This document shows positions 2,046 through 34,820 of a stretch of DNA of 35,003 nucleotides, in pieces. Position numbers and translations under genes: made by a program. The notes under the pieces were generated by a model that was not told the origin of the DNA, did no database searches, and worked only from the letters and a program-made list of their open reading frames with translations. The stretch is from an uncultured Candidatus Peribacteria bacterium (GTDB lineage Bacteria > Patescibacteriota > Gracilibacteria > Absconditabacterales > Absconditicoccaceae): the NCBI GenBank assembly GCA_964510755.1, contig CAZECU010000001.1:1-35003 (forward strand), given 5' to 3'. Position 1 is the first letter of the stretch. Each line of letters begins with the position of its first letter.

Positions 2046-3590
2046 CTATTCCATCTCTACAAACATTGTTTTGCTTCTATACTGGAGTGCTTCAGCGAGA
2101 TGCTGTATACTTACAGATTCTTGTCCTTGGATATCTGCAATAGTCCTGGCAAGTTTCATTGTACGATGGACTACTCTGGTAGACAAGGTGAGTTTTTTGG
2201 CGGCATCAGCAAGAAATTTTTTACTCTCCTCATCCAAGGGAATCAATTCGTCGATGTGTTTGGATGTGATCTGCGCGTTGGACGTGATAGCAAGTCAGGC
2301 AAATCTTTTTTGTTGGAGTTTCCAAGCGTTGATCACTTTGTCTCTGATACTCATTGAGCTTTCTTCTCAGATGTTGTTGAGAATCTTGTCGATATCTTCT
2401 CTGGGTATCTCCAAAATCATATCAATCCTATCCAACAATGGTCATGATATTTTGCTCTGATAACGCTTGATATCCATTAGCGAACACCCACATGATTTTT
2501 CTGGATCTTTGTAATAGCCACATTTGCACGGGTTCATCGCACCGACAAACATAAAATCCGCAGGATACTGGATCGTTCCAGCCACACGTGAGATGACCAC
2601 AGATTTGTCTTCCAATGGCTGACGCAATACTTCCAATACTTCTCTAGGAAACTCTGTCACTTCATCAAAAAATAAAATACCTTTGTGTGCCAAACTCACT
2701 TCTCCTGGCGTCAAATGTGCACCGCCTCACACAATAGAAATCTTGGAAGCGGTATGGTGTACTTGACGAAATGGTCTTGCAGTGATCAGTGGCAATGTTT
2801 TGTTGAGTTTACCGACCAACGAATATACTTGACTGACCTGCAAGATTTCTTCGAATCCCAATGGAGGCAAAATACTTGGCAACGCTTTGCTCAACAATGT
2901 TTTGCCACTACCAGGAGCTCCTATCATGATGACGTTGTGTAGTCCGGCAGCAGCTATCATCAGCGCTCTCTTGGCCATCAGCTGTCCTTTGATTTGTCCA
3001 AAATCTACTTCGTGAGTAGTGGTATGCTGGTATAATGTTTGGATATCTTTGGCTTGATCTATACCCTCTAATGGTTTACCTTCTACAAAATATCCTATCA
3101 TCTGATCAAAGGTCGCGATAGGATATATATGAATTCATGGGACGTATTCCAATTCATAGAGATTTTCTTCTGGCACGAAAAAATGTTTGTATCCGTGTGA
3201 CATAGCACTAATGACTGATGGCAGAAGTCCATTTACCCTCTTGATCTGTCAGTCGAGACCTAACTCTCCAAAAAACAAATATTCTTGTGGTATCAACGGA
3301 ATCTTGTCTTCAAAAATCAAAAACAATATAGCTACTGCCATCGGGAGATCAAAACTTGTCCCTATTTTTTTGATATCAGAGGGAGATAAGTTGAGGACTA
3401 TTTTTCTGTTGGGGAGAGGGATGCCAGCATTGCGAAACGTAGCTCTCAAACGTTCTTTGGACTCTTTGATAGCAGCATCTGGCAATCCCACGATTTCTAT
3501 GGTAGGCAAAGATTTGCTCGAATCTGCTTCAACAATAATCTCATGTCACTCCAGTCCCACATTGGCGTATGTTTTGATTTTTTGGATCAT
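2046..3590 (-). CDS. comM: Mg-chelatase-like AAA+ ATPase, ComM/YifB family (514 aa)
   Basis: Four ORF pieces in one frame. N-terminus [33 protein letters not shown], Walker [13 protein letters not shown], and [11 protein letters not shown] with its G encoded by TGA 2442-2444. I checked the 2247-2441 gap and found no TAA/TAG. Confidence 0.9.
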
Positions 3591-3692
3591 TATACAAAAA
3601 AAAGATACTAAAATGTAGTATCTCATACCCGCAATTTGTACTGATTGGCAACGTGTATATTGTAGTTATTTGCCCTACAAAATCAACACCAC

Positions 3693-4265: not shown

Positions 4266-4466
4266 TTATTCATGATGTAATGACGTAGTGAATAATGATG
4301 GATTATAATGTTTGGTATACGCTTTGTGAAAATCTTTGACATGAATTTTGAGTCCTTTGCAAACAAACCTATCCACTCTATGTTTGGTAATAATCTTTTG
4401 GACTACAGGCAAGGTGATACCAAAAATATCTGCTATCTCTTGGGGAGAACGATATGGCTTCTGCAT
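4266..4466 (-). CDS. Small helix-turn-helix DNA-binding protein (66 aa, excisionase/MerR-like HTH)
   Basis: Intact ORF. SPQEIADIFGITLPVVQKIITKHRV resembles an HTH_17/excisionase-type motif. The upstream frame closes at a TAG without another ATG. Confidence 0.55.
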   Translation of the reverse strand: MQKPYRSPQEIADIFGITLPVVQKIITKHRVDRFVCKGLKIHVKDFHKAYTKHYNPSLFTTSLHHE

Positions 4467-4474
4467 TTGCTTGA

Positions 4475-4597
4475 TTACAAATAAAAAGATTTGTGATGAA
4501 TGAGCAACAGCACTTCGTCATCTTCTTCCTCTTCCTCTCTATCTATAGCATCATCATCTTCGTCATAATCGACCTCATCATCATTATGGATAGTCAT
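4475..4597 (-). CDS. Possible 40-aa highly acidic micro-protein (MTIHNDDEVDYDEDDDAIDREEEEEDDEV..)
   Basis: ATG at 4597 to TAA at 4475-4477, ending 8 nt before the HTH gene start. Too short for the ORF track. There is no homology evidence. Confidence 0.25.
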   Translation of the reverse strand: MTIHNDDEVDYDEDDDAIDREEEEEDDEVLLLIHHKSFYL

Positions 4598-4669
4598 AAG
4601 ATATTGTAGGTAAAGATATTTAGCATATTGATTGACGAAATCCATCTATCACACTCACGAAATAAAAAT

Positions 4670-5763: not shown

Positions 5764-5798
5764 CAAAAAAAACATCTCCGGCGATACCGGAGGATGTT
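5764..5798 (-). terminator. Rho-independent terminator of the 5803-6141 gene
   Basis: AACATCTCCGG / CCGGAGGATGTT stem with an A8 run on the plus strand (T-run on the minus strand), just after the stop codon. Confidence 0.6.
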
Positions 5799-5802
5799 AT
5801 GA

Positions 5803-6141
5803 TTAAATCAAAGAGATCAAGGATTCTAACTCCTCTCGCTCTGTTTCTATTATTTTTTGCTTGGCTGGAGATATTTCAGTTTCTCCAATTGTTTTGAGTA
5901 GTGTTGCGTCGTAAACGCGAGATATTTTCCCATCTATCAGCATTACTGCCACAAAATTTCCTGCTTGAGATATCCAGCGCAACGCTGGATTCCCCGGCTT
6001 GTCCGTATCAACAGATAATTTTTTTTGCTCCCACGTGTTGTACGCTATAGCAAAAGGGGTTTTTCCTTTGTGTGCTGCTTTTTCTTTTTGTGCTGCTTGG
6101 AATGCAGCAACAATTTTTGAATTTTTTGGTGTCTCTTTCAT
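5803..6141 (-). CDS. Hypothetical protein (112 aa), no UGA codons
   Basis: Intact ORF with its own TTGACT-N16-TATACC promoter-like sequence upstream and terminators on both sides. No family recognised. Confidence 0.65.
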   Translation of the reverse strand: MKETPKNSKIVAAFQAAQKEKAAHKGKTPFAIAYNTWEQKKLSVDTDKPGNPALRWISQAGNFVAVMLIDGKISRVYDATLLKTIGETEISPAKQKIIETEREELESLISLI

Positions 6142-6220
6142 AGCTTTTTTGTTTTTAATTTTGAAATGGTATACTTATTTTGTTTCAAAAGTCAACCCGA
6201 TGAGGATATACCTTTTGTAT

Positions 6221-6247
6221 AAAAAAAACGGAGAGAAAAACTCCCCG
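6221..6247 (-). terminator. Rho-independent terminator after paralog gene 6255-6809
   Basis: CGGAGAG-AAAAA-CTCCCCG hairpin preceded by A8 on the plus strand (T8 after the stem on the minus strand). Confidence 0.6.
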
Positions 6248-6254
6248 AATATTT

Positions 6255-6809
6255 TTATTCAATCGTCCTCTCGCAAAAGCCAATCTCCCATTCTGGTTGA
6301 AGTTGGTCATTTTTATAGAATTTGATTAAGGCAAACAATCTGCCAGAATAGTTTAGCCTTATCTCTTCCATAGTAATAGTTGAGGATAATGGAAATCCGA
6401 GCATATTGATAGTGAGAGAATATCCCTTTGGTGTGTTGGATACGTTTTTGAAAGATTTACGTATAAATCTTTTTAACTTTTTTTCCTCACGTTTGGATAC
6501 TTCCATGTGAAAACACCAGTTTTCAATTGCCTCATCTAGATGATCCATTTGTTGAAGAGTCAGATATTTAGACATTACTTGACCCATAATCAACGAGTGC
6601 CTTTCTTTGAAGAGCCAGAAACTAATCTCCCAGATAGCCCACAAAAGGACAAGTATCAACAGCGTGATACAGCCAACGAGAGTCGTTAGTTTAGCGAAAT
6701 TTGGATCCCTGGACAATATGGTCATTGAACCAATAAACGCACAGACTGCTACCCATCTCATGACTATTACTACAGCTCTTCTGAATCTTAATTTTTCTTG
6801 ATTTTTCAT
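6255..6809 (-). CDS. 2-TM membrane protein with ~110-aa C-terminal domain, array paralog 1 (184 aa)
   Basis: I trimmed the track ORF 6255-6896 to ATG 6809 (MKNQEKLRF..) because 6810-6896 is the conserved promoter cassette. Two hydrophobic helices and a PKGYSLTINML motif. No UGA. Confidence 0.7.
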   Translation of the reverse strand: MKNQEKLRFRRAVVIVMRWVAVCAFIGSMTILSRDPNFAKLTTLVGCITLLILVLLWAIWEISFWLFKERHSLIMGQVMSKYLTLQQMDHLDEAIENWCFHMEVSKREEKKLKRFIRKSFKNVSNTPKGYSLTINMLGFPLSSTITMEEIRLNYSGRLFALIKFYKNDQLQPEWEIGFCERTIE

Positions 6810-6927
6810 AATGTTTATTTTTTTGTTAATGTTTTGTTTGTTTATTATCTTATATATATATTTTATATTATTTGTCAATACTTGTTTTTTGAACAAAAAA
6901 AATCCGGGAAATATCCCCGGGTTTATG
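6810..6927 (-). promoter_or_regulatory. Terminator-promoter cassette, copy 1
   Basis: On the minus strand: stop codon, CCGGGGATATTTCCCGG hairpin (6904-6920) plus T-run, TTGACA (6873-6878), about 16 nt, TATATA, then an A-rich leader. The ~50-nt block is identical to the copies at 7531-7582 and 8221-8270. Confidence 0.7.
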
Positions 6928-7473
6928 TTATACTTCTATCTCTGTTGCTATTAATTTTCCGAGATAACCTAATTTTAAGTGACCTTTAAGAATTTTTCCA
7001 TCATATTCCAAACAAATATAATGAATGAATTTTTTGGCCATATAATCATTACCATAAGCTTTAGCATCAAGAAATATCTCTATCTTATATCCTTTACGTG
7101 GATAGTTATCATACAATACTTTCTTATCTGATTTATACAACACACTATAAAGAAAAATTGTATATAGTCGATCTGGATTATTGGGTTGCTCATTAGCTTG
7201 AGTTTTAAAAGGAAGAATTTTATATAATTCTTCCACCATAATCATGAGATGTTTGATTTGCTCTGGTGATAGTTCTTTGGACCAATTTTCACGTTTGTAT
7301 ATGAACTCACTTAGCAGCCAGAATATAATCATACCACTATAGATGATGATTTTGCTTGTGCTCCACAATTCCCCTTCGATCAGGTCAAATACTATTCCGA
7401 CGATACACACTGCGGCCATCAATCTACATCCAACGACCATGCTTTTGTTGTTTCTTTGTCTTTGTGTTTCCAT
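6928..7473 (-). CDS. 2-TM membrane protein with C-terminal domain, array paralog 2 (181 aa)
   Basis: Intact ORF. METQRQRNNK.., then ..CRLMAAVCIVGIVFDLIEGELW.., a second TM helix, and a C-terminal domain with RKGYKIEIFLDA. No UGA. Confidence 0.75.
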   Translation of the reverse strand: METQRQRNNKSMVVGCRLMAAVCIVGIVFDLIEGELWSTSKIIIYSGMIIFWLLSEFIYKRENWSKELSPEQIKHLMIMVEELYKILPFKTQANEQPNNPDRLYTIFLYSVLYKSDKKVLYDNYPRKGYKIEIFLDAKAYGNDYMAKKFIHYICLEYDGKILKGHLKLGYLGKLIATEIEV

Positions 7474-7591
7474 TGTTGTATTATTTTGTTGTTATTATTT
7501 TATATTTTTATATCTTATACATAATTTATATCTTTTGTCAATACTTGTTTTTTGAACAAAAAAATCCGGGAAATATCCCCGGATATAATTT
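7474..7591 (-). promoter_or_regulatory. Terminator-promoter cassette, copy 2
   Basis: Hairpin at 7566-7582 plus T-run, TTGACA (7536-7541), N16, TATAAG. Same block as copies 1 and 3, with the A-run one nucleotide shorter. Confidence 0.7.
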
Positions 7592-8161
7592 TTATGAAGC
7601 TCCAATGATTCTAATATGATCATCTTCCCACTGGTGTTCTATTGTTTTTTGAACTTTTTGTCTTACATCTTGATAGGTTAAAATCGCTTTTACTTTGTTG
7701 CCTTGACGTTCAATATAAATATTAGACATGAATGCAACAGGTGGCATCACACATCGAACATCTCGTATTTCATAAATGTCACCCTGATCGCTATCCAAAA
7801 ATATTTCCATTTCATATCCTTTTTCATGCGTATTTATGATTTTGCGACATGCATTAGATTGTACCATTTTTGTGAATTTATCACGTCTTTTTCTCGTGGT
7901 TCTGACCGGGTAAACGTCGTAAAAAAATTCTAAAGCGATTTTTAAATCATTTTTTTGTTGGGAAATTGATTTACCTCCTCGATGGTAGAGAATTTCACAG
8001 ATAATCCAGACTATCCCGGAAGCAATATATACTATCAATATATGGCGTTTCCATGAACCTTCCATGAGATCAAATCCCATACTTATTAAGCAAGCAGCTG
8101 TCCACAATCTGATCGTTATGATTATTTCTTTTGTGGTTTGTTGTCGTTGATTTGTTTCCAT
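7592..8161 (-). CDS. 2-TM membrane protein with C-terminal domain, array paralog 3 (189 aa)
   Basis: Intact ORF. METNQRQQTTK.., then ..IRLWTAACLISMGFDLMEGSW.., a second TM helix, and a C-terminal domain with EKGYEMEIFLDS. No UGA. Confidence 0.75.
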   Translation of the reverse strand: METNQRQQTTKEIIITIRLWTAACLISMGFDLMEGSWKRHILIVYIASGIVWIICEILYHRGGKSISQQKNDLKIALEFFYDVYPVRTTRKRRDKFTKMVQSNACRKIINTHEKGYEMEIFLDSDQGDIYEIRDVRCVMPPVAFMSNIYIERQGNKVKAILTYQDVRQKVQKTIEHQWEDDHIRIIGAS

Positions 8162-8277
8162 TGTTTTATTTTTTTTATTATTACTTTTTTATTTTTATAT
8201 CTTATATATAATTCATATCTTTTGTCAATACTTGTTTTTTGAACAAAAAAAATCCGGGAAATATCCCCGGGTTTATG
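8162..8277 (-). promoter_or_regulatory. Terminator-promoter cassette, copy 3
   Basis: Hairpin at 8254-8270 plus T8, TTGACA (8223-8228), N16, TATAAG, an A-rich leader, then ATGGAAACA. Confidence 0.7.
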
Positions 8278-8505
8278 CTATGAATAATGTATTTTCTTGT
8301 ATTTTTCGCAGAGATGACATATCTCTACAATGATCCAAAATAGTAGATAAGCGCCTGAAAGCACTTTACCAGCGAAGTTACCGATATCTTTAACATCTTC
8401 GCTTGAAGAACATAATGTAACTACAAAGAGTACTGCAAAAATTACTGCAAACTTTCTAATCATGTGACGAATTTTTTTGTTTTCGTCGGTGTTATTTGTT
8501 TTCAT
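8278..8505 (-). CDS. Small 2-TM protein (75 aa), first gene of the array; lacks the C-terminal domain
   Basis: Intact ORF MKTNNTDENKKIRHMIRKFAVIFAVLFVV.. with two hydrophobic segments. It is followed by cassette copy 3. Confidence 0.6.
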   Translation of the reverse strand: MKTNNTDENKKIRHMIRKFAVIFAVLFVVTLCSSSEDVKDIGNFAGKVLSGAYLLFWIIVEICHLCEKYKKIHYS

Positions 8506-8569
8506 ACTGTTTTTATTTATGCTACTTGTATATCTTTTTTGTTGTAAAAGTCAATCTTACGAAACATAA

Positions 8570-9889
8570 TTATTCTTCTCTTCTATACGTTTGTTTGCTG
8601 AGATATTTGGTCGCATAAAAAATAATCATCGTCTCGATACCTACATAGACTAGTACCAAGAAAAAAATCAGTTCTCCTGGTAATGATGTTTGGATGAGGA
8701 GGATGATATTTACTATCAACGCTGCCATGCTGGAAATGATCCAATATATATAATCCGTTTTGGTAAATATCTTGGCCAACATCGGTATCTTGTGTGCATA
8801 AAAAATCATTGCCGCGCTATAAATATTTCGAAAGATTCATCGACTCACTACTGAGCCTATATTTCCCTGAAATACAGTAAACAGACTTACATAGATAGCG
8901 AAGTTGATAACGAGAAATACTACGAGATTTTGGATCACACTATTGTATCAGATTTTTTTGAGACAGATGACATTGGTGACAAAGGTGGCTATTACCGCTC
9001 GATAGAGCAGATGATTGACCACAGCAAAATCGCCCACATGTGTACCATACCACACCATCAAAATCACAATCAAGACAATGTTGAATATCTCCAATATCTG
9101 TTTGGTCCACGCTGGCATCGCCGTCAAAAAGGTATAGAGTATTTCCATGGTTTTGGAATTGAAATATTTTTTGGGAGCGGTAATTCTTTCTCCTGCAAGA
9201 ATACGTCTCACGGACATCTCTTTTTTGGTTTCGAGGGTTTGAGGGGTATGTTGGAAAATTTTGAAAATCAGGATGTAGATCCCTGTGAGAAGGAGTCCAT
9301 TTATCGTGAGAGCCAGATATATATTTTTGATCTGATCCAACACTACGAGAAAAATTGTCCCCAGCGCCAATACTCCCAACGCATATCGAAATGATTTGGA
9401 GAGGTCACGATAGAGACCAATCACAAAAATAAAAAATGCTACTACTGCAAGGTTTCCGACCCGTATCATCATAAATATCGTATACATCGTTGACCGTCAT
9501 CACAAGGCGAATCATAGAATAAGTAAGAACAACAAGGATAAATAATATCCTACGGGAAAAATAACTTTGCCGTCTTTATAGTCTGCAAGATAAGAAAAAA
9601 TCCACAACAGTAGATTGATCCCTATCAGCCAGAGTGCGTTGACAATCACATCCATACCAAAAAAATTACCAACTCCGACCAATCATGCCAAGATAATTAC
9701 CCATGCTATATATAAACTATATTTTCTCGCTAACTGAAATCAGTGAACTTTTATCGTTTGCGTAGCTCCATAATATCCAAAAAATGCTGCGATAAAGAGC
9801 AGTGGTAAAAATGCAAGATACCACAAGCCTATCCCGTAAAAAAATAGCACAAATCCTACTACCACTATCGACAACAACAACAAAGCCAT
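8570..9889 (-). CDS. Polytopic integral membrane protein (439 aa, roughly 10-12 TM), unknown family
   Basis: ORFs 8570-8809 and 8948-9487 plus sub-threshold pieces up to ATG 9889 share one frame. I translated it codon by codon: 7 in-frame TGA codons, including the tandem TGA-TGA at 9497-9502, and no TAA/TAG. Confidence 0.75.
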
Positions 9890-11375: not shown

Positions 11376-12185
11376 ATGAAAAAAGTTTTTTGGATACTCT
11401 TTGTGCTTATACTTCTTGTCGGTACAGGATTTATGTATCTGGTCAAAAATCCTCAGATGCCATTTTCACAAAAAGTATTTACTACTATAGGACTAGATAT
11501 TAATCAGCATCCAGGGTTGTTTAACCTCTCAGATGACCTAGGGACAGGCGAAGATCTTACAAACTGTACAAGTTATTTCGATGGATGTAATACCTGTATG
11601 GTATCGGGTGGTGTCATCGGTGGATGCACCAAAATGCTTTGTAAAAACCCAACACAACCAACATGTCTTGCATACAAAAATACTGGTATCGACCTCACCA
11701 ATTGTGTCAGTTATTTTGATGGATGCAACACCTGTAGTGTCAAAGATGGCAAACCTGATGCGTGTACTCTTATGTATTGTGAAACTCCAGGAGAACCAAA
11801 ATGTAATGAATACGCAAGCGGTACAACCAACAACGAAAATGTTGGACTCGCAAATCCAGCTTCCACAAATTGTGTAAACAATGGAGGAAAACTAGATATT
11901 GTCACTTCATCAGATGGTGGACAACAAGGTATGTGTACATTGTCCGATGGGACCGTTTGTGAAGAACGAGCATATATGAAAGGAACATGTGTAGCCAAAA
12001 ATCAAGATAATGATGAAACCAATACTTCTGTCTGTACTATGGAATATGCCCCCGTCTGTGCCAGCGTTCAAGTACAATGTATCAAAGCTCCTTGTGACCC
12101 TATCCAGCAAACCTTTGGCAATACCTGTATGATGAAAGCCAACAAACACGCGATCTATCTTCATGATGGAGAATGCGCTAAATAA
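11376..12185 (+). CDS. Secreted Cys-rich modular protein (269 aa): 2x YFDGCNTC repeat, DUF333-like domain, Kazal-like domain
   Basis: N-terminal signal/anchor MKKVFWILFVLILLVG. Two repeats of LTNC[TV]SYFDGCNTC.V..G....CT.M.C. GLANPASTNCVNNGGKLDIVTSSDGGQQGMCTLSDGTVCEE resembles DUF333. CTMEYAPVCAS...TFGNTCMM..A....LHDGEC resembles a Kazal inhibitor domain. About 27 Gly codons, none of them UGA. Confidence 0.85.
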   Translation: MKKVFWILFVLILLVGTGFMYLVKNPQMPFSQKVFTTIGLDINQHPGLFNLSDDLGTGEDLTNCTSYFDGCNTCMVSGGVIGGCTKMLCKNPTQPTCLAYKNTGIDLTNCVSYFDGCNTCSVKDGKPDACTLMYCETPGEPKCNEYASGTTNNENVGLANPASTNCVNNGGKLDIVTSSDGGQQGMCTLSDGTVCEERAYMKGTCVAKNQDNDETNTSVCTMEYAPVCASVQVQCIKAPCDPIQQTFGNTCMMKANKHAIYLHDGECAK

Positions 12186-34248: not shown

Positions 34249-34322
34249 TAAAATATCTGTTGACTTTTTGTTTGTAATATATATAGTACCATTTCAAACA
34301 AAACAGAAAAAAAATAAACATT

Positions 34323-34820
34323 ATGAAAAAAAACATTATCTTTATGGTCTTCGTTCTTTTGGGACTACACCTTTGTGCTCAAGATACCATCTATACTGCT
34401 CCCAATGTGTGTATAGACAGCATCAAAACATCACCGCTCTATGCTGGTGTTAATACTCGCATCACTACAGAAAATTTTCCTTTGGTTGTTACGGATACAG
34501 GGAAATTAGTCATGAAAGTATTTCGTTTTGGGTGTCGGATGAAAAAAGACAACATCGTTAAAAAAATGAAAAAAGAGGGGTACCGACCAGCAACCATTAT
34601 AGAACTCTATGCGTATCACCAACGTAATAGTGATATCAAGTATTGCTGTCCTATGTTTGCATTGGGATCCTCCTATTGGGGTATATGGAATGCTTTCGAC
34701 TTTCCCTATATCGAATACAATGAAAATAACCAATATGAGTTTTCATTAATCCCCTATTCAGAAAATATCCGACGTCCCGGATTTCTGAAAGAGTGTTACT
34801 TCCTTGGAGTACAGGAATAA
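34323..34820 (+). CDS. Secreted hypothetical protein (165 aa) with signal peptide; no UGA codons
   Basis: Intact ORF with signal-peptide-like MKKNIIFMVFVLLGLHLCAQD. No family recognised. Followed by a terminator. Confidence 0.7.
   Translation: MKKNIIFMVFVLLGLHLCAQDTIYTAPNVCIDSIKTSPLYAGVNTRITTENFPLVVTDTGKLVMKVFRFGCRMKKDNIVKKMKKEGYRPATIIELYAYHQRNSDIKYCCPMFALGSSYWGIWNAFDFPYIEYNENNQYEFSLIPYSENIRRPGFLKECYFLGVQE

What the first reader, a model, noticed from the sequence alone, without database searches (positions are those of the whole stretch)
5803..8505. A subset of genes completely avoids UGA-Gly while neighbouring housekeeping genes use it freely
By my hand counts, roughly one Gly codon in five or six is UGA in the housekeeping genes. 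Examples: nrdD about 10 of 54, nrdG 8 of 17, Nudix 5 of 13, RAYT 5 of 11, PilT-like ATPase about 8 of 30, secD about 10 of 50. The rate is lower in gpmI (3 of about 45), efp (1 of about 17) and pyk (1 of about 25).

The following genes contain no UGA at all:
- the five-gene block 5803-8505 (about 35 Gly codons)
- the Cys-rich secreted protein 11376-12185 (about 27 Gly codons)
- the secreted protein 34323-34820 (about 9)
- the HTH gene 4266-4466

That is about 70 Gly codons with zero UGA, which is very unlikely at the background rate even allowing for gene-to-gene variation. All of them are accessory-looking secreted or membrane proteins without recognisable housekeeping homology. The 34323 gene has a Bacteroidetes-style signal peptide (LCAQD).

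Possible explanations, all inference:
- recent horizontal acquisition from standard-code organisms
- selection to remain translatable under the standard code, for example through mobile or host-associated exchange
- expression-level-linked avoidance of the reassigned codon

The array paralogs have diverged strongly yet gained no UGA, which argues against simple recency for that block.
Basis: partly seen in the sequence, partly recalled or inferred. Interest (0 to 1): 0.7.

Follow-up and report, generated by a model that had tools for sequence, protein, structure and literature searches.

The report
Standard-code genes inside a recoded genome
This bacterium reads UGA as glycine and CGA/CGG as tryptophan, yet a few self-contained genes, including this five-gene block, follow the ordinary genetic code and appear to be kept that way by selection, for reasons still unknown.

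Summary
The counts are right: 108 of 672 Gly codons in the window are UGA, and the block 5803-8505 has 0 of 34. Inside the window alone this is weak (P 0.02 binomial, 0.17 with over-dispersion).

Related genomes make it strong.
- In about 65 loci from Absconditabacteria (SR1), UGA use is bimodal. 39 genes with at least 20 Gly codons have no UGA, against 0.85 expected.
- One conserved secreted-protein family has 0 UGA in 1,734 Gly codons.

These UGA-free genes form one class.
- Only in-frame TGA is missing.
- Their 5' leaders are A-rich.
- They use CGA/CGG where relatives have Arg/Lys. The rest of the genome uses CGA/CGG where relatives have Trp.

So they follow the standard code at all three reassigned codons.

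Avoidance persists across saturated synonymous divergence, so recent arrival is not the cause. Ribosomal-protein genes use UGA, so expression level is not the cause either.

In the window, the five block genes and 34323-34820 belong to the class. 11376-12185, 4266-4466 and 4475-4645 do not. They have ordinary leaders, and where orthologues were found (the first two) these use UGA.

The block is four promoter-gene-terminator cassettes for a family of small two-helix membrane proteins of unknown function, plus one unrelated gene. What reads these genes under the standard code is unresolved.

The parts
8527..8554 (-). Sigma-70-like promoter of the first cassette (TTGACT, 16 nt, TATACA). A 21-nt A-rich leader follows at 8506-8526.
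   Evidence: Read from the sequence. My hexamer scan scored it 9 of 12. Leader A fraction is 0.57.
8278..8505 (-). Gene for a 75-aa protein with two membrane helices, which looks like a shortened fourth member of the paralogue family. It has 0 TGA in 3 Gly codons.
   Evidence: The motif LLFWIIVEICHL resembles GIVWIICEILYH of 7592-8161 (sequence reading). The orthologues in L001 and L016 are also TGA-free.
8254..8270 (-). Intrinsic-terminator hairpin CCGGGGATATTTCCCGG followed by a T run. It marks the start of the conserved intergenic module.
   Evidence: 9 terminator-like sites found against 1.5 expected. The module is invariant in 9 copies from 3 genomes.
8199..8228 (-). Near-consensus promoter (TTGACA ... 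TATAAG/TAAGAT) inside the repeated intergenic module. An A-rich leader follows at 8162-8198.
   Evidence: 11 of 12; 10 of 12. Leader A fraction is 0.77.
7592..8161 (-). Paralogue 1, 189 aa: two N-terminal membrane helices plus a domain of about 110 aa. It has 0 TGA in 9 Gly codons and four in-frame CGA codons.
   Evidence: It is 99% identical in nucleotides to L001 and L016, while housekeeping genes are 77 to 84% identical. CGA codons 6 and 61 align with the AGA and CGT Arg codons of paralogue 2.
7564..7584 (-). Terminator hairpin of the repeated module.
7512..7541 (-). Promoter of the repeated module. An A-rich leader follows at 7474-7511.
   Evidence: Leader A fraction is 0.70.
6928..7473 (-). 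Paralogue 2, 181 aa, with 0 TGA in 10 Gly codons.
   Evidence: It is 100% identical in nucleotides to L001 10001-10546. In L016 a distant relative, P0004, takes its place.
6904..6920 (-). Terminator hairpin of the repeated module.
6849..6878 (-). Promoter of the repeated module (TTGACA, 18 nt, TATAAG). An A-rich leader follows at 6810-6848.
   Evidence: Read (11 of 12) and. Leader A fraction is 0.70.
6255..6809 (-). Paralogue 3, 184 aa, with 0 TGA in 7 Gly codons.
   Evidence: Its orthologues are 61 to 81% identical in protein and also TGA-free. CGA and CGG columns in this family align with R or K.
6229..6247 (-). A different terminator hairpin, following paralogue 3.
6166..6195 (-). Promoter-like site (TTGACT ... 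TACCAT/TATACC) for 5803-6141.
   Evidence: Leader A fraction is 0.57. The motif taccatttcaaa is shared with the region upstream of 34323.
5803..6141 (-). Gene for an unrelated 112-aa soluble protein of unknown function, with 0 TGA in 5 Gly codons.
   Evidence: Orthologues occur only in L001 and L016, at about 65% identity. No family match was found.
5776..5792 (-). Terminator closing the block.
34260..34287 (+). Promoter-like site (TTGACT, 16 nt, TATAGT) of the second locus of the same class. An A-rich leader follows at 34288-34322.
   Evidence: 10 of 12. Leader A fraction is 0.67. The last bases before the ATG are almost the same as upstream of 6255-6809.
34323..34820 (+). Gene for a 165-aa secreted protein in the same class as the block. 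It has 0 TGA in 9 Gly codons.
   Evidence: Its non-Gly codon usage resembles the UGA-free class (+0.013 per codon). The single CGG column in its family aligns with R. Orthologues occur only in the sister species, are 87% identical and have 0 TGA in 8 Gly codons.

Best explanation
Shown.
- The window comes from an Absconditabacteria (SR1) genome. Its ordinary genes read UGA as Gly and CGA/CGG as Trp.
- The five-gene block and 34323-34820 belong to a discrete class of genes, found across this clade, that follow the standard code at all three codons.
  - They have no in-frame UGA, either as a sense codon or as a stop.
  - They have no CGA/CGG at Trp positions.
  - They use CGA/CGG at Arg/Lys positions.
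- In relatives the class keeps this state while synonymous sites saturate, so purifying selection maintains it. Recency, chance and RNA-motif avoidance do not explain it.
- Class members share A-rich, G/T-poor 5' leaders.
- In the window each gene is its own unit: a near-consensus sigma-70-type promoter, a leader, the ORF and an intrinsic terminator.
- The block is an array of four such cassettes for small two-helix membrane proteins, plus one unrelated gene.
- The junctions between cassettes are nearly invariant. Two whole cassettes are near-identical between species that differ by about 20% elsewhere.

Inferred.
- Changes that would be silent under the SR1 code (GGA to UGA, UGG to CGG) never become fixed in these genes.
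- The translation that matters for their fitness must therefore treat UGA as unreadable or a stop, and CGA/CGG as Arg.
- My preferred mechanism: these mRNAs are made by the SR1 cell but are translated while standard-code factors dominate (RF2 and tRNA-Arg).
- Those factors would most plausibly come from prey cytoplasm taken up during epibiotic predation, or from an infecting phage.
- Under that model the class would be the set of envelope and membrane proteins that still come out correctly in that state.
- The identity of the standard-code reader is not shown.
For: Bimodality.
- 39 genes with at least 20 Gly codons have no TGA, against 0.85 expected. Only 11 of the 188 genes fall between 0.10 and 0.50 of the local rate.
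- Family 5 carries the C-terminal sorting domain of type IX secretion (T9SS), Pfam Por_Secre_tail. It has 27 members, lies upstream of rpsL-rpsG, and has 0 TGA in 1,734 Gly codons against 541 expected.

The effect is at the codon level.
- Out-of-frame TGA is near normal (22.0 against 22.5 per 1000 codons in frame +1, and 29.6 against 36.5 in frame +2). In-frame TGA is 0 against 24.6 per 1000 codons.
- The window block and 34323 show the same pattern.

Avoidance is sustained.
- The SPFH genes (membrane-scaffold family that includes flotillins) of L010 and L002 are 84% identical in protein.
- Their codon identity at conserved residues is 0.38, like ComM at 0.40.
- 33 of 60 shared Gly sites have changed their GGN codon, and none is TGA.
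- Family 5 behaves the same way.

CGA/CGG.
- Native families: CGA aligns with W in 0.43 of 194 columns, CGG in 0.51 of 50. In the window lineage, CGA aligns with W in 0.71 of 56 columns.
- UGA-free families: CGA aligns with R 0.29 and K 0.19 in 28 columns, and CGG with R 0.52 in 10. W is absent.
- All 7 such columns in the block and 34323 families are R or K.
- TGG occurs at 12.6 per 1000 codons in the class against 6.2 in native genes.
- This agrees with the published prediction that CGA/CGG = Trp in this phylum (PMC8629427).

Leaders.
- A fraction is 0.57 in the class against 0.33 to 0.35 elsewhere.
- Coupling of an A-rich leader with TGA-free status: odds ratio 16.7, P = 5e-14.
- In the window the six genes with the most A-rich leaders are exactly the block genes and 34323.

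The block.
- It is TGA-free in three genomes of two species. Flanking genes have re-randomised UGA and GGN at conserved Gly sites (UU 14, UG 19, GU 29).
- Cassette architecture is shown.

The phylum includes epibiotic predators that absorb prey cytoplasm (PMC8080830).
Against: - No standard-code reader has been identified. No RF2, tRNA-Arg or tRNA-Gly(UCA) gene lies in any sampled locus.
- The ArfB-like genes next to two class members contain TGA themselves.
- Uptake of intact prey translation factors is not documented.
- The block's codon usage outside Gly is native-like (-0.041 to 0.000 per codon). The UGA-free class in relatives is not native-like.
- The CGA/CGG evidence is thin for the window lineage (7 columns). 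It is uninformative for the fast-evolving family 5 (12 CGA columns, no clear partner residue).
- The survey is biased: loci were anchored on comM and rpsG, genes were called with a simple first-ATG ORF caller, and a few loci are near-duplicates.
- Some UGA-free genes in relatives may simply be recent imports, for example pyrE and pyrF next to tRNA-Lys in L045.
- The 99 to 100% identical cassettes could be an assembly chimera formed across the intergenic repeats.
Confidence: 0.5

Rival explanations
1. Gene flux across codes. The class genes circulate horizontally between code-25 bacteria and organisms or mobile elements that use the standard code. Each copy is a fairly recent immigrant, or is selected at gene level to work in both hosts.
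For: - Each gene is a self-contained promoter-gene-terminator cassette.
- Two cassettes are 99 to 100% identical between species that are about 20% diverged.
- The islands between comM and gpmI are present in 4 of 10 relatives.
- Codon usage of the class in relatives is atypical: CGT 0.31 against 0.10, AGA 0.35 against 0.52.
- UGA-free pyrE/pyrF and a possible beta-barrel gene (my reading; no family match) lie right after tRNA-Lys.
- One gene carries a possible relic TGA stop.
- HGT is common in this phylum: 126 transferred genes in Vampirococcus (PMC8080830).
Against: - No homologue outside code-25 contigs was found for the block family, 34323 or family 5. The searches covered 5.8 billion and 1.84 billion proteins. 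Family 5 identity drops from 47% to 29%.
- The contexts checked are all code-25.
- The SPFH island gene has diverged as much as its flanking genes, which fits vertical descent.
- Family 5 keeps its position upstream of rpsL in 27 loci.
- Relic TGA stops are at most 1 among 44 class genes. About 20% would be expected from donors that use TGA stops (the 20% is my estimate).
Confidence: 0.17
2. Expression in the host cell. The class genes are delivered to the standard-code host as DNA or RNA and expressed there, like the genes that Agrobacterium transfers into plant cells. They are therefore written in the host's code with host-type secretion signals.
For: - The class follows the standard code at all three reassigned codons.
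- Class proteins in relatives carry the T9SS sorting domain Por_Secre_tail, which as far as I know belongs to a secretion system of bacteria with an outer membrane.
- Their signal peptides look like those of Bacteroidota, and one protein looks like an outer-membrane beta-barrel. Both are my reading of the sequences; the beta-barrel candidate matched no family.
- The class has A-rich leaders and no Shine-Dalgarno motif.
Against: - The promoters are canonical TTGACA/TATAAT, not the Bacteroidota type (the Bacteroidota consensus is from my own knowledge).
- No transfer machinery or precedent is known in these candidate-phyla (CPR) bacteria.
- Native SR1 genes also lack Shine-Dalgarno motifs.
- The block proteins carry no host-specific signal.
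Confidence: 0.08
3. Efficiency or fidelity. The reassigned codons are decoded slowly or ambiguously, so highly expressed or fidelity-sensitive genes avoid them. The few CGA/CGG codons in these genes are tolerated Arg-to-Trp missense changes.
For: - Ribosomal-protein genes show a mild UGA deficit: 0.19 against 0.31 of Gly codons.
- Low-level mistranslation of UGA was seen by proteomics in a related lineage (PMC4032931).
- The block genes have strong promoters.
- efp and pyk are UGA-poor in the window.
Against: - Ribosomal-protein families use UGA at 0.66 to 1.18 of the local rate, while the class has exactly zero.
- Class codon bias is opposite to that of ribosomal proteins: AGA 0.35 against 0.81, CGT 0.31 against 0.03.
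- pyk and gpmI are UGA-poor in one genome and not in others.
- CGA/CGG make up about 16% of Arg-type codons in the class. They sit at R/K columns and are not avoided.
Confidence: 0.1
4. Chance. The window block is UGA-free only because its genes are short and poor in Gly.
For: The beta-binomial simulation gives P = 0.17 to 0.18. Three other UGA-free genes in the window probably are chance: 11376-12185, 4266-4466 and 4475-4645.
Against: - The block is UGA-free in three genomes despite fast UGA/GGN turnover in its neighbours.
- It carries two independent marks of the class: A-rich leaders and CGA/CGG at R/K columns.
- A simple binomial two-class calculation with priors of 0.03 to 0.2 gives a posterior of 0.96 or higher that the block belongs to the class.
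Confidence: 0.04

Closest known systems
Recoded bacteriophages in which the reassigned stop codon is confined to late genes (Ivanova et al. 2014; Borges et al. 2022; cited from my own knowledge, papers not retrievable here)
   Same: One genome holds two sets of genes. One set can be read under the standard code and the other needs the alternative decoding. The split is thought to tie expression to a change of translation state.
   Different: This is a cellular genome, and the standard-code set is the minority. The split covers two sense codons with conflicting meanings (CGA/CGG as Arg or as Trp), not only the absence of one codon. No decoder switch has been identified.
The bldA / TTA codon regulon of Streptomyces (own knowledge)
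   Same: Presence or absence of one codon divides genes into those that depend on a particular tRNA and those that do not.
   Different: In Streptomyces the codon is rare and marks the regulated minority. Here the codon is common (16 to 60% of Gly codons) and its absence marks the minority. Regulation of tRNA-Gly(UCA) has not been tested.
Horizontally acquired 'alien' islands recognised by atypical codon usage, which fades with time (Lawrence and Ochman; own knowledge)
   Same: The islands are variable and their genes are self-contained. Codon usage is atypical in relatives. The genes lack the recipient's special codon.
   Different: The signature does not fade over saturated synonymous divergence. 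No donors were found. The window block has native-like codon usage.
Phage morons (own knowledge)
   Same: Single genes are bracketed by their own promoter and terminator and inserted as independent units.
   Different: There is no prophage context and no phage homologues.
Published code of Absconditabacteria: UGA = Gly (Campbell et al. 2013) and predicted CGA/CGG = Trp (Shulgina and Eddy 2021, PMC8629427)
   Same: The native genes of the window and its relatives follow exactly this code.
   Different: The three papers I could read describe the code as uniform across the genome. The gene class reported here does not follow it.

Membership tests
Absconditabacteria / code-25 genome | In-frame UGA in conserved genes at positions where homologues have Gly. 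| tested here: met
   Window TGA codons align with GGN in the sister genome: 19 + 29 sites, against 11 that align with non-Gly residues. In ComM, 4 to 5 of 7 align with Gly in standard-code homologues and none with Trp. In the window lineage TGA columns are G in 0.79 of cases.
Absconditabacteria / code-25 genome | CGA and CGG are read as Trp (prediction of Shulgina and Eddy 2021). | tested here: met
   Native families: CGA aligns with W in 0.43 of 194 columns and CGG in 0.51 of 50. Window lineage: CGA aligns with W in 0.71 of 56 columns, and R is essentially absent.
Absconditabacteria / code-25 genome | tRNA-Gly(UCA) is present and release factor 2 is absent. | not testable with these tools
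   There is no tRNA gene in the window and no tRNA(UCA) in any fetched locus. The whole genome was not available.
Recently imported genes from standard-code donors | Close homologues exist in standard-code organisms. | tested here: not met
   The block family occurs only in three code-25 genomes plus one fragment. 34323 occurs only in the sister species. Family 5 falls from 47% to 29% identity, and the contexts checked are code-25.
Recently imported genes from standard-code donors | The foreign signature decays with time in the genome, so it should be confined to young insertions. | tested here: not met
   Synonymous sites are saturated and GGN codons have turned over, yet there is no UGA. The block is present and UGA-free in two species.
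Recently imported genes from standard-code donors | Codon usage is atypical for the genome. | tested here: inconclusive
   Met for the class in relatives and for 34323 (+0.018 and +0.013 per codon). Not met for the block genes (-0.041 to 0.000, against a native mean of -0.021).
Recently imported genes from standard-code donors | Some former TGA stops are now read through into short tails. | tested here: not met
   All 44 class genes end in TAA or TAG, in ordinary proportions. There is one possible case, L003 9992-10927.
Highly expressed genes under translational selection | Ribosomal-protein genes show the same avoidance and the same codon preferences. | tested here: not met
   UGA use relative to the local rate: S7 0.71, S12 1.18, L19 0.66, L25 0.89. 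Ribosomal proteins prefer AGA (0.81) and shun CGT (0.03). The class does the reverse.
Codon-gated gene set (bldA type, or early genes of recoded phages) | A discrete set of genes lacks the gated codon. | tested here: met
   The distribution is bimodal: 39 genes with zero UGA against 0.85 expected. Several families have 0 UGA in 40 to 1,734 Gly codons.
Codon-gated gene set (bldA type, or early genes of recoded phages) | The set shares an expression signal. | tested here: met
   The class has A-rich leaders.
Codon-gated gene set (bldA type, or early genes of recoded phages) | The codon-free genes are read correctly in both decoding states. | tested here: not met
   Class genes use CGA/CGG at Arg/Lys columns, and the native code would read those codons as Trp.
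Codon-gated gene set (bldA type, or early genes of recoded phages) | A regulated decoder exists (tRNA or release factor). | not testable with these tools
   No decoder gene lies in the sampled DNA. The neighbouring ArfB-like genes contain TGA themselves.
Phage moron or prophage cargo | The gene has its own promoter and terminator. | tested here: met
Phage moron or prophage cargo | The gene lies in a prophage or has phage homologues. | tested here: not met
   No match in 50,697 phage records. No relative in IMG/VR. No meaningful PHROG match. The neighbouring genes are cellular.
T9SS cargo proteins (family 5 in relatives, not in the window) | A C-terminal Por_Secre_tail sorting domain. | tested here: met
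   PF18962 at E = 1e-10 and 2e-8. Every homologue listed carries it.
T9SS cargo proteins (family 5 in relatives, not in the window) | T9SS machinery is encoded in the same genome. | not tested
   Only stretches of about 20 kb around two anchor genes were available.

The most novel reading that the evidence does not exclude
Absconditabacteria genomes carry a resident, vertically inherited set of genes that are written in the standard genetic code and selected under it. The set includes this block. The reason would be that these genes are translated by the prey or host's translation apparatus. That could happen inside the predator, once prey cytoplasm carrying RF2 and tRNA-Arg has flooded in. 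Or it could happen inside the host, after transfer of nucleic acid. One bacterial genome would then hold two conflicting codes, each matched to a different translation environment.
Probability: 0.25. Interest if true: 0.97.

Novelty: new variant of a known kind. Interest (0 to 1): 0.85.

Why it matters
- The papers I could read describe codon reassignment in bacteria as uniform across the genome. It is discussed there as a barrier that isolates these organisms genetically. A selection-maintained minority of genes that obey the standard code at UGA, CGA and CGG would show that two codes can coexist in one cellular genome.
- It would also give a sequence-only marker for a functionally special set of genes in uncultured epibiotic predators. 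The marker combines three codons with an A-rich leader, and the genes are mostly envelope and surface proteins of unknown role.
- It makes a question testable: when, where and by what these genes are translated.
- There is a practical consequence. Translating such genomes with table 25 alone (or with table 25 plus CGA/CGG = Trp) misreads this class. Methods that infer the code from pooled genes hide it.

Tried and rejected
- **Expression level.** Rejected: ribosomal-protein genes use UGA, and their codon bias is opposite to that of the class.
- **Recent arrival.** Rejected for the SPFH and T9SS families, and unlikely for the block.
- **Avoidance of the TGA trinucleotide in RNA or DNA (a nuclease or binding site).** Rejected: out-of-frame TGA is close to normal, with only a modest dip in frame +2.
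- **Use of TGA as a stop within the class.** No relics were found.
- **A neighbouring release-factor-like switch gene.** The RF-1-domain genes are ArfB-like and contain TGA themselves.
- **Phage or defence origin.** No hits in phage records, IMG/VR or PHROGs, and only a marginal PADLOC hit.
- **Function of the block proteins.** Pfam, NCBIfam, PADLOC and PHROGs gave nothing meaningful. The AlphaFold model had pLDDT 57, too poor for a fold search.
- **Known RNA families.** Rfam found none in the window.
- **UGA placed early in native genes as a gate.** The share is flat across gene deciles. It is higher only in codons 1 to 20, which may reflect wrong start calls.
- **Integration at tRNA-Lys as the reason family 5 keeps its position.** The tRNA lies on the far side of the ribosomal-protein cluster.
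- **Extending the survey to more distant lineages.** L071-L096 turned out to use the standard code.
- **Walking along the source contig.** Look-ups accept only proteins without TGA.
- **Literature search.** It failed at every attempt. Only three papers could be read, by PMC id. Novelty therefore rests partly on my own knowledge.
- **A correction of my own.** I first took L001 for the window's own contig. It belongs to a sister species.

Full report
**1. What the window is.**
The window has 35.6% G+C. Long ORFs appear only when TGA is read as a sense codon.
- Window TGA codons align with GGN codons in a sister genome.
- In ComM they align with Gly, never Trp, in standard-code homologues.
- Relatives fetched with ComM are labelled candidate division SR1 or Absconditabacteria.

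The genome therefore uses code 25. The gene map rests on my own simple ORF caller (first ATG) plus Pfam for part of the genes. Other gene names come from the Pfam hits listed for sister loci.

**2. The observation.**
- 108 of 672 Gly codons are TGA, a fraction of 0.161.
- Nine genes have none. Together they hold 71 Gly codons, 34 of them in the block 5803-8505.

Within the window this is only suggestive.
- Binomial model: P = 0.015 for the total and 0.023 for the run.
- Beta-binomial model fitted to the window: 0.18 and 0.17.

**3. Anatomy of the block.**
- Genes 6255-6809, 6928-7473 and 7592-8161 are paralogues with 19 to 33% protein identity.
- Each has two N-terminal membrane helices and a C-terminal domain of about 110 aa.
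- 8278-8505 looks like a shortened fourth copy. 5803-6141 is unrelated.
- Each gene has its own intrinsic terminator and a promoter scoring 9 to 11 of 12. One search found 9 terminator-like sites against 1.5 expected; its promoter-like count (15) did not exceed its shuffles (15.4).
- The three paralogues are separated by a module of about 118 nt. It holds a hairpin, a T run, TTGACA, TATAAG and an A-rich leader.
- The 60-nt core of that module is invariant in nine copies from three genomes.
- No protein-family, defence, phage or RNA-family match is meaningful.
- Among 5.8 billion and 1.84 billion proteins, the family occurs only here, in two sister contigs and in one fragment.

**4. Sister genomes.**
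- L001 and L016 are close strains of a species that is 77 to 84% identical to the window in housekeeping DNA. Both carry the block, again with no TGA.
- At conserved Gly sites of flanking genes, UGA and GGN have largely re-randomised: UU 14, UG 19, GU 29, GG 199. The sister block is therefore nearly independent evidence.
- Cassettes 6928-7473 and 7592-8161 are 100% and 99% identical in nucleotides between the species.
- The other cassettes are 52 to 81% identical in protein, and in L016 one is replaced by a distant relative.
- This indicates cassette exchange across the conserved junctions. A chimeric assembly would have to be excluded first.
- In L008 the genes that flank this region lie next to each other. 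In L004, L005 and L010 the interval holds other genes, some of them also UGA-free. The site is a variable hot spot.

**5. The clade-wide pattern.**
The survey used loci anchored on comM and on ribosomal protein S7: 791 genes from 65 code-25 loci.
- Among 188 genes with at least 20 Gly codons, 39 have no TGA, against 0.85 expected. Only 11 fall between 0.10 and 0.50 of the local rate.
- Family 5 has a signal peptide, PKD/Ig repeats and the T9SS sorting domain PF18962. It lies just upstream of rpsL-rpsG in 27 loci.
- Family 5 has 0 TGA in 1,734 Gly codons against 541 expected. This holds even where neighbouring genes use UGA for 60% of Gly.
- Islands between comM and gpmI in four relatives have 0 to 1 TGA in about 430 Gly codons. 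They encode SPFH/flotillin, YqiJ-like and TelA proteins and large acidic proteins.
- Other large secreted families are UGA-rich, at 1.4 to 1.5 times the local rate. Secretion alone is therefore not the cause.

**6. Explanations ruled out.**
- *Expression level.* Ribosomal-protein families use UGA at 0.66 to 1.18 of the local rate. Their preferences (AGA 0.81, CGT 0.03) are opposite to those of the UGA-free class (AGA 0.35, CGT 0.31).
- *Recency.*
  - The SPFH genes of L010 and L002 have diverged as much as ComM and gpmI: 84% protein identity, codon identity 0.38 against 0.40 to 0.45.
  - 33 of 60 shared Gly sites changed their GGN codon, and none is TGA.
  - Family 5 behaves the same way.
- *Sequence motif.* Out-of-frame TGA is close to normal, and only in-frame TGA is missing.
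- *Donors.* Family 5 homologues run from 95% down to 47% identity and then drop to 29%. Every context checked is code-25.
- *Relic TGA stops.* There are essentially none.

**7. Two more marks of the class.**
*A-rich leaders.*
- The 30 nt before the start codon are 57% A in the class, against 33 to 35% elsewhere.
- An A-rich leader and UGA-free status are coupled: odds ratio 16.7, P = 5e-14.
- In the window the six genes with the most A-rich leaders (0.57 to 0.77) are exactly the five block genes and 34323-34820.
- 11376-12185, 4266-4466 and 4475-4645 have ordinary leaders, 0.20 to 0.37.

*CGA/CGG.*
- Shulgina and Eddy predicted that Absconditabacteria read CGA/CGG as Trp (PMC8629427).
- In UGA-using families these codons do align with Trp: CGA 0.43 of 194 columns, CGG 0.51 of 50, and 0.71 of 56 CGA columns in the window lineage.
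- In UGA-free families they align with Arg/Lys, as true Arg codons do, and never with Trp.
- All seven such columns in the block and 34323 families are R or K.
- TGG is twice as frequent in the class: 12.6 against 6.2 per 1000 codons.
- Example: 7592-8161 has four in-frame CGA codons. Codons 6 and 61 align with the AGA and CGT codons of paralogue 6928-7473.

**8. Which window genes belong.**
- *Members:* the five block genes and 34323-34820. The latter also has class-like codon usage and a UGA-free orthologue.
- *Not members:* 11376-12185, 4266-4466 and 4475-4645.
  - The orthologues of 11376-12185 use UGA (6/21, 4/21, 4/12), and its family uses CGA for Trp.
  - Three of the five HTH orthologues carry one UGA each.
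  - 4475-4645 has no Gly codon at all.
  - Their UGA-free state is best read as chance. For 11376-12185, P is about 0.01 to 0.05, among 31 genes tested.

**9. Interpretation.**
- *Shown:* a discrete class of genes follows the standard code at all three reassigned codons. It has stayed so over long divergence while resident in code-25 genomes.
- *Inferred:*
  - GGA-to-UGA and UGG-to-CGG changes would be silent under the native code. They are common in neighbouring genes but never fixed in this class.
  - The translation that matters for these genes must therefore behave like the standard code.
- *Candidates:* who provides that translation is open.
  - Prey or phage factors acting inside the SR1 cell. 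This is my preference, because the promoters are canonical and members of the phylum absorb prey cytoplasm (PMC8080830).
  - Expression in the host.
  - Continuing gene flux from unsampled standard-code sources.
- None of the three is demonstrated.

**10. Caveats.**
- Gene calling was simple, and some start codons are probably wrong.
- The sample of loci is biased and contains near-duplicates.
- The CGA/CGG evidence for the window lineage rests on few columns.
- The block's codon usage outside Gly is native-like.
None of them mentions a UGA-free or standard-code subset.

Noticed in passing
L017-L057 and L100 (for example L019 5063-9028, L050 8119-9300, L100 6001-7050): Genomes of this phylum (which, as far as I know, lacks an outer membrane) carry a conserved gene just upstream of rpsL-rpsG. 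It encodes a protein with the type IX secretion sorting domain (PF18962) and a signal peptide that looks Bacteroidota-like to me. The gene never contains UGA.
   Followed up: partly
L002 11613-18241, L003 4927-11775, L006 3781-9889, L010 11627-16786: Four relatives have islands between comM and gpmI that are absent from the window. They encode SPFH/flotillin, YqiJ-like and TelA proteins and large acidic repeat proteins. The islands are essentially UGA-free.
   Followed up: partly
window 6810-8290, compared with L001 9190-10660: Two cassettes are 99 to 100% identical in nucleotides to a species that is about 20% diverged elsewhere. This is either recent exchange between species across the conserved junctions or a chimeric assembly.
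   Followed up: partly
native genes of the window and relatives (for example comM 2046-3626, gpmI 372-1991, 8570-9889): CGA and CGG codons align with Trp in orthologues. This independently supports the published prediction that Absconditabacteria reassigned these Arg codons to Trp. Translations with table 25 therefore mis-assign Arg at these positions.
   Followed up: yes
L045 13270-14800 and L035 7304-8125: UGA-free genes lie directly after tRNA-Lys. In L045 they are a phosphoribosyltransferase-domain gene that I read as pyrE and a pyrF gene. In L035 it is a gene I read as an outer-membrane beta-barrel, though it matched no family. Both look like true island insertions at a tRNA site.
   Followed up: no
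L005 3986-4483 (-): A small secreted protein has UGA at 16 of its 18 Gly codons, the opposite extreme from the block.
   Followed up: no
window 4266-4645, and L002, L004, L005, L010, L011 upstream of comM: An acidic mini-protein (D/E-rich tail) recurs in the variable region next to comM in all five relatives. The small HTH gene lies in the same region in three of them (L004, L005, L010), 2 to 4 kb away rather than adjacent as in the window. Their function is unknown.
   Followed up: no
L003 9992-10927: The only TGA in this otherwise UGA-free gene lies 13 codons before the TAA stop. It may be a former TGA stop that is now read through.
   Followed up: no
L100 5302-5892 and L097 11076-11501 (just beyond the right end of the window in the sister species): ArfB-like genes with a GGQ motif (RF-1 domain) lie next to standard-code genes in two lineages. 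They contain UGA themselves, so they are not an obvious code switch.
   Followed up: partly
window 11376-12185: This Cys-rich DUF333 protein has 0 UGA in 26 Gly codons, although its orthologues use UGA. Its leader and codon usage are ordinary, and its family uses CGA for Trp. I read this as chance, but at P of about 0.01 it is the least comfortable part of the account.
   Followed up: partly
UGA-using genes of all surveyed loci: UGA makes up 0.49 and 0.42 of Gly codons in codons 1-10 and 11-20, against about 0.35 elsewhere. This may come from start codons called too far upstream.
   Followed up: no
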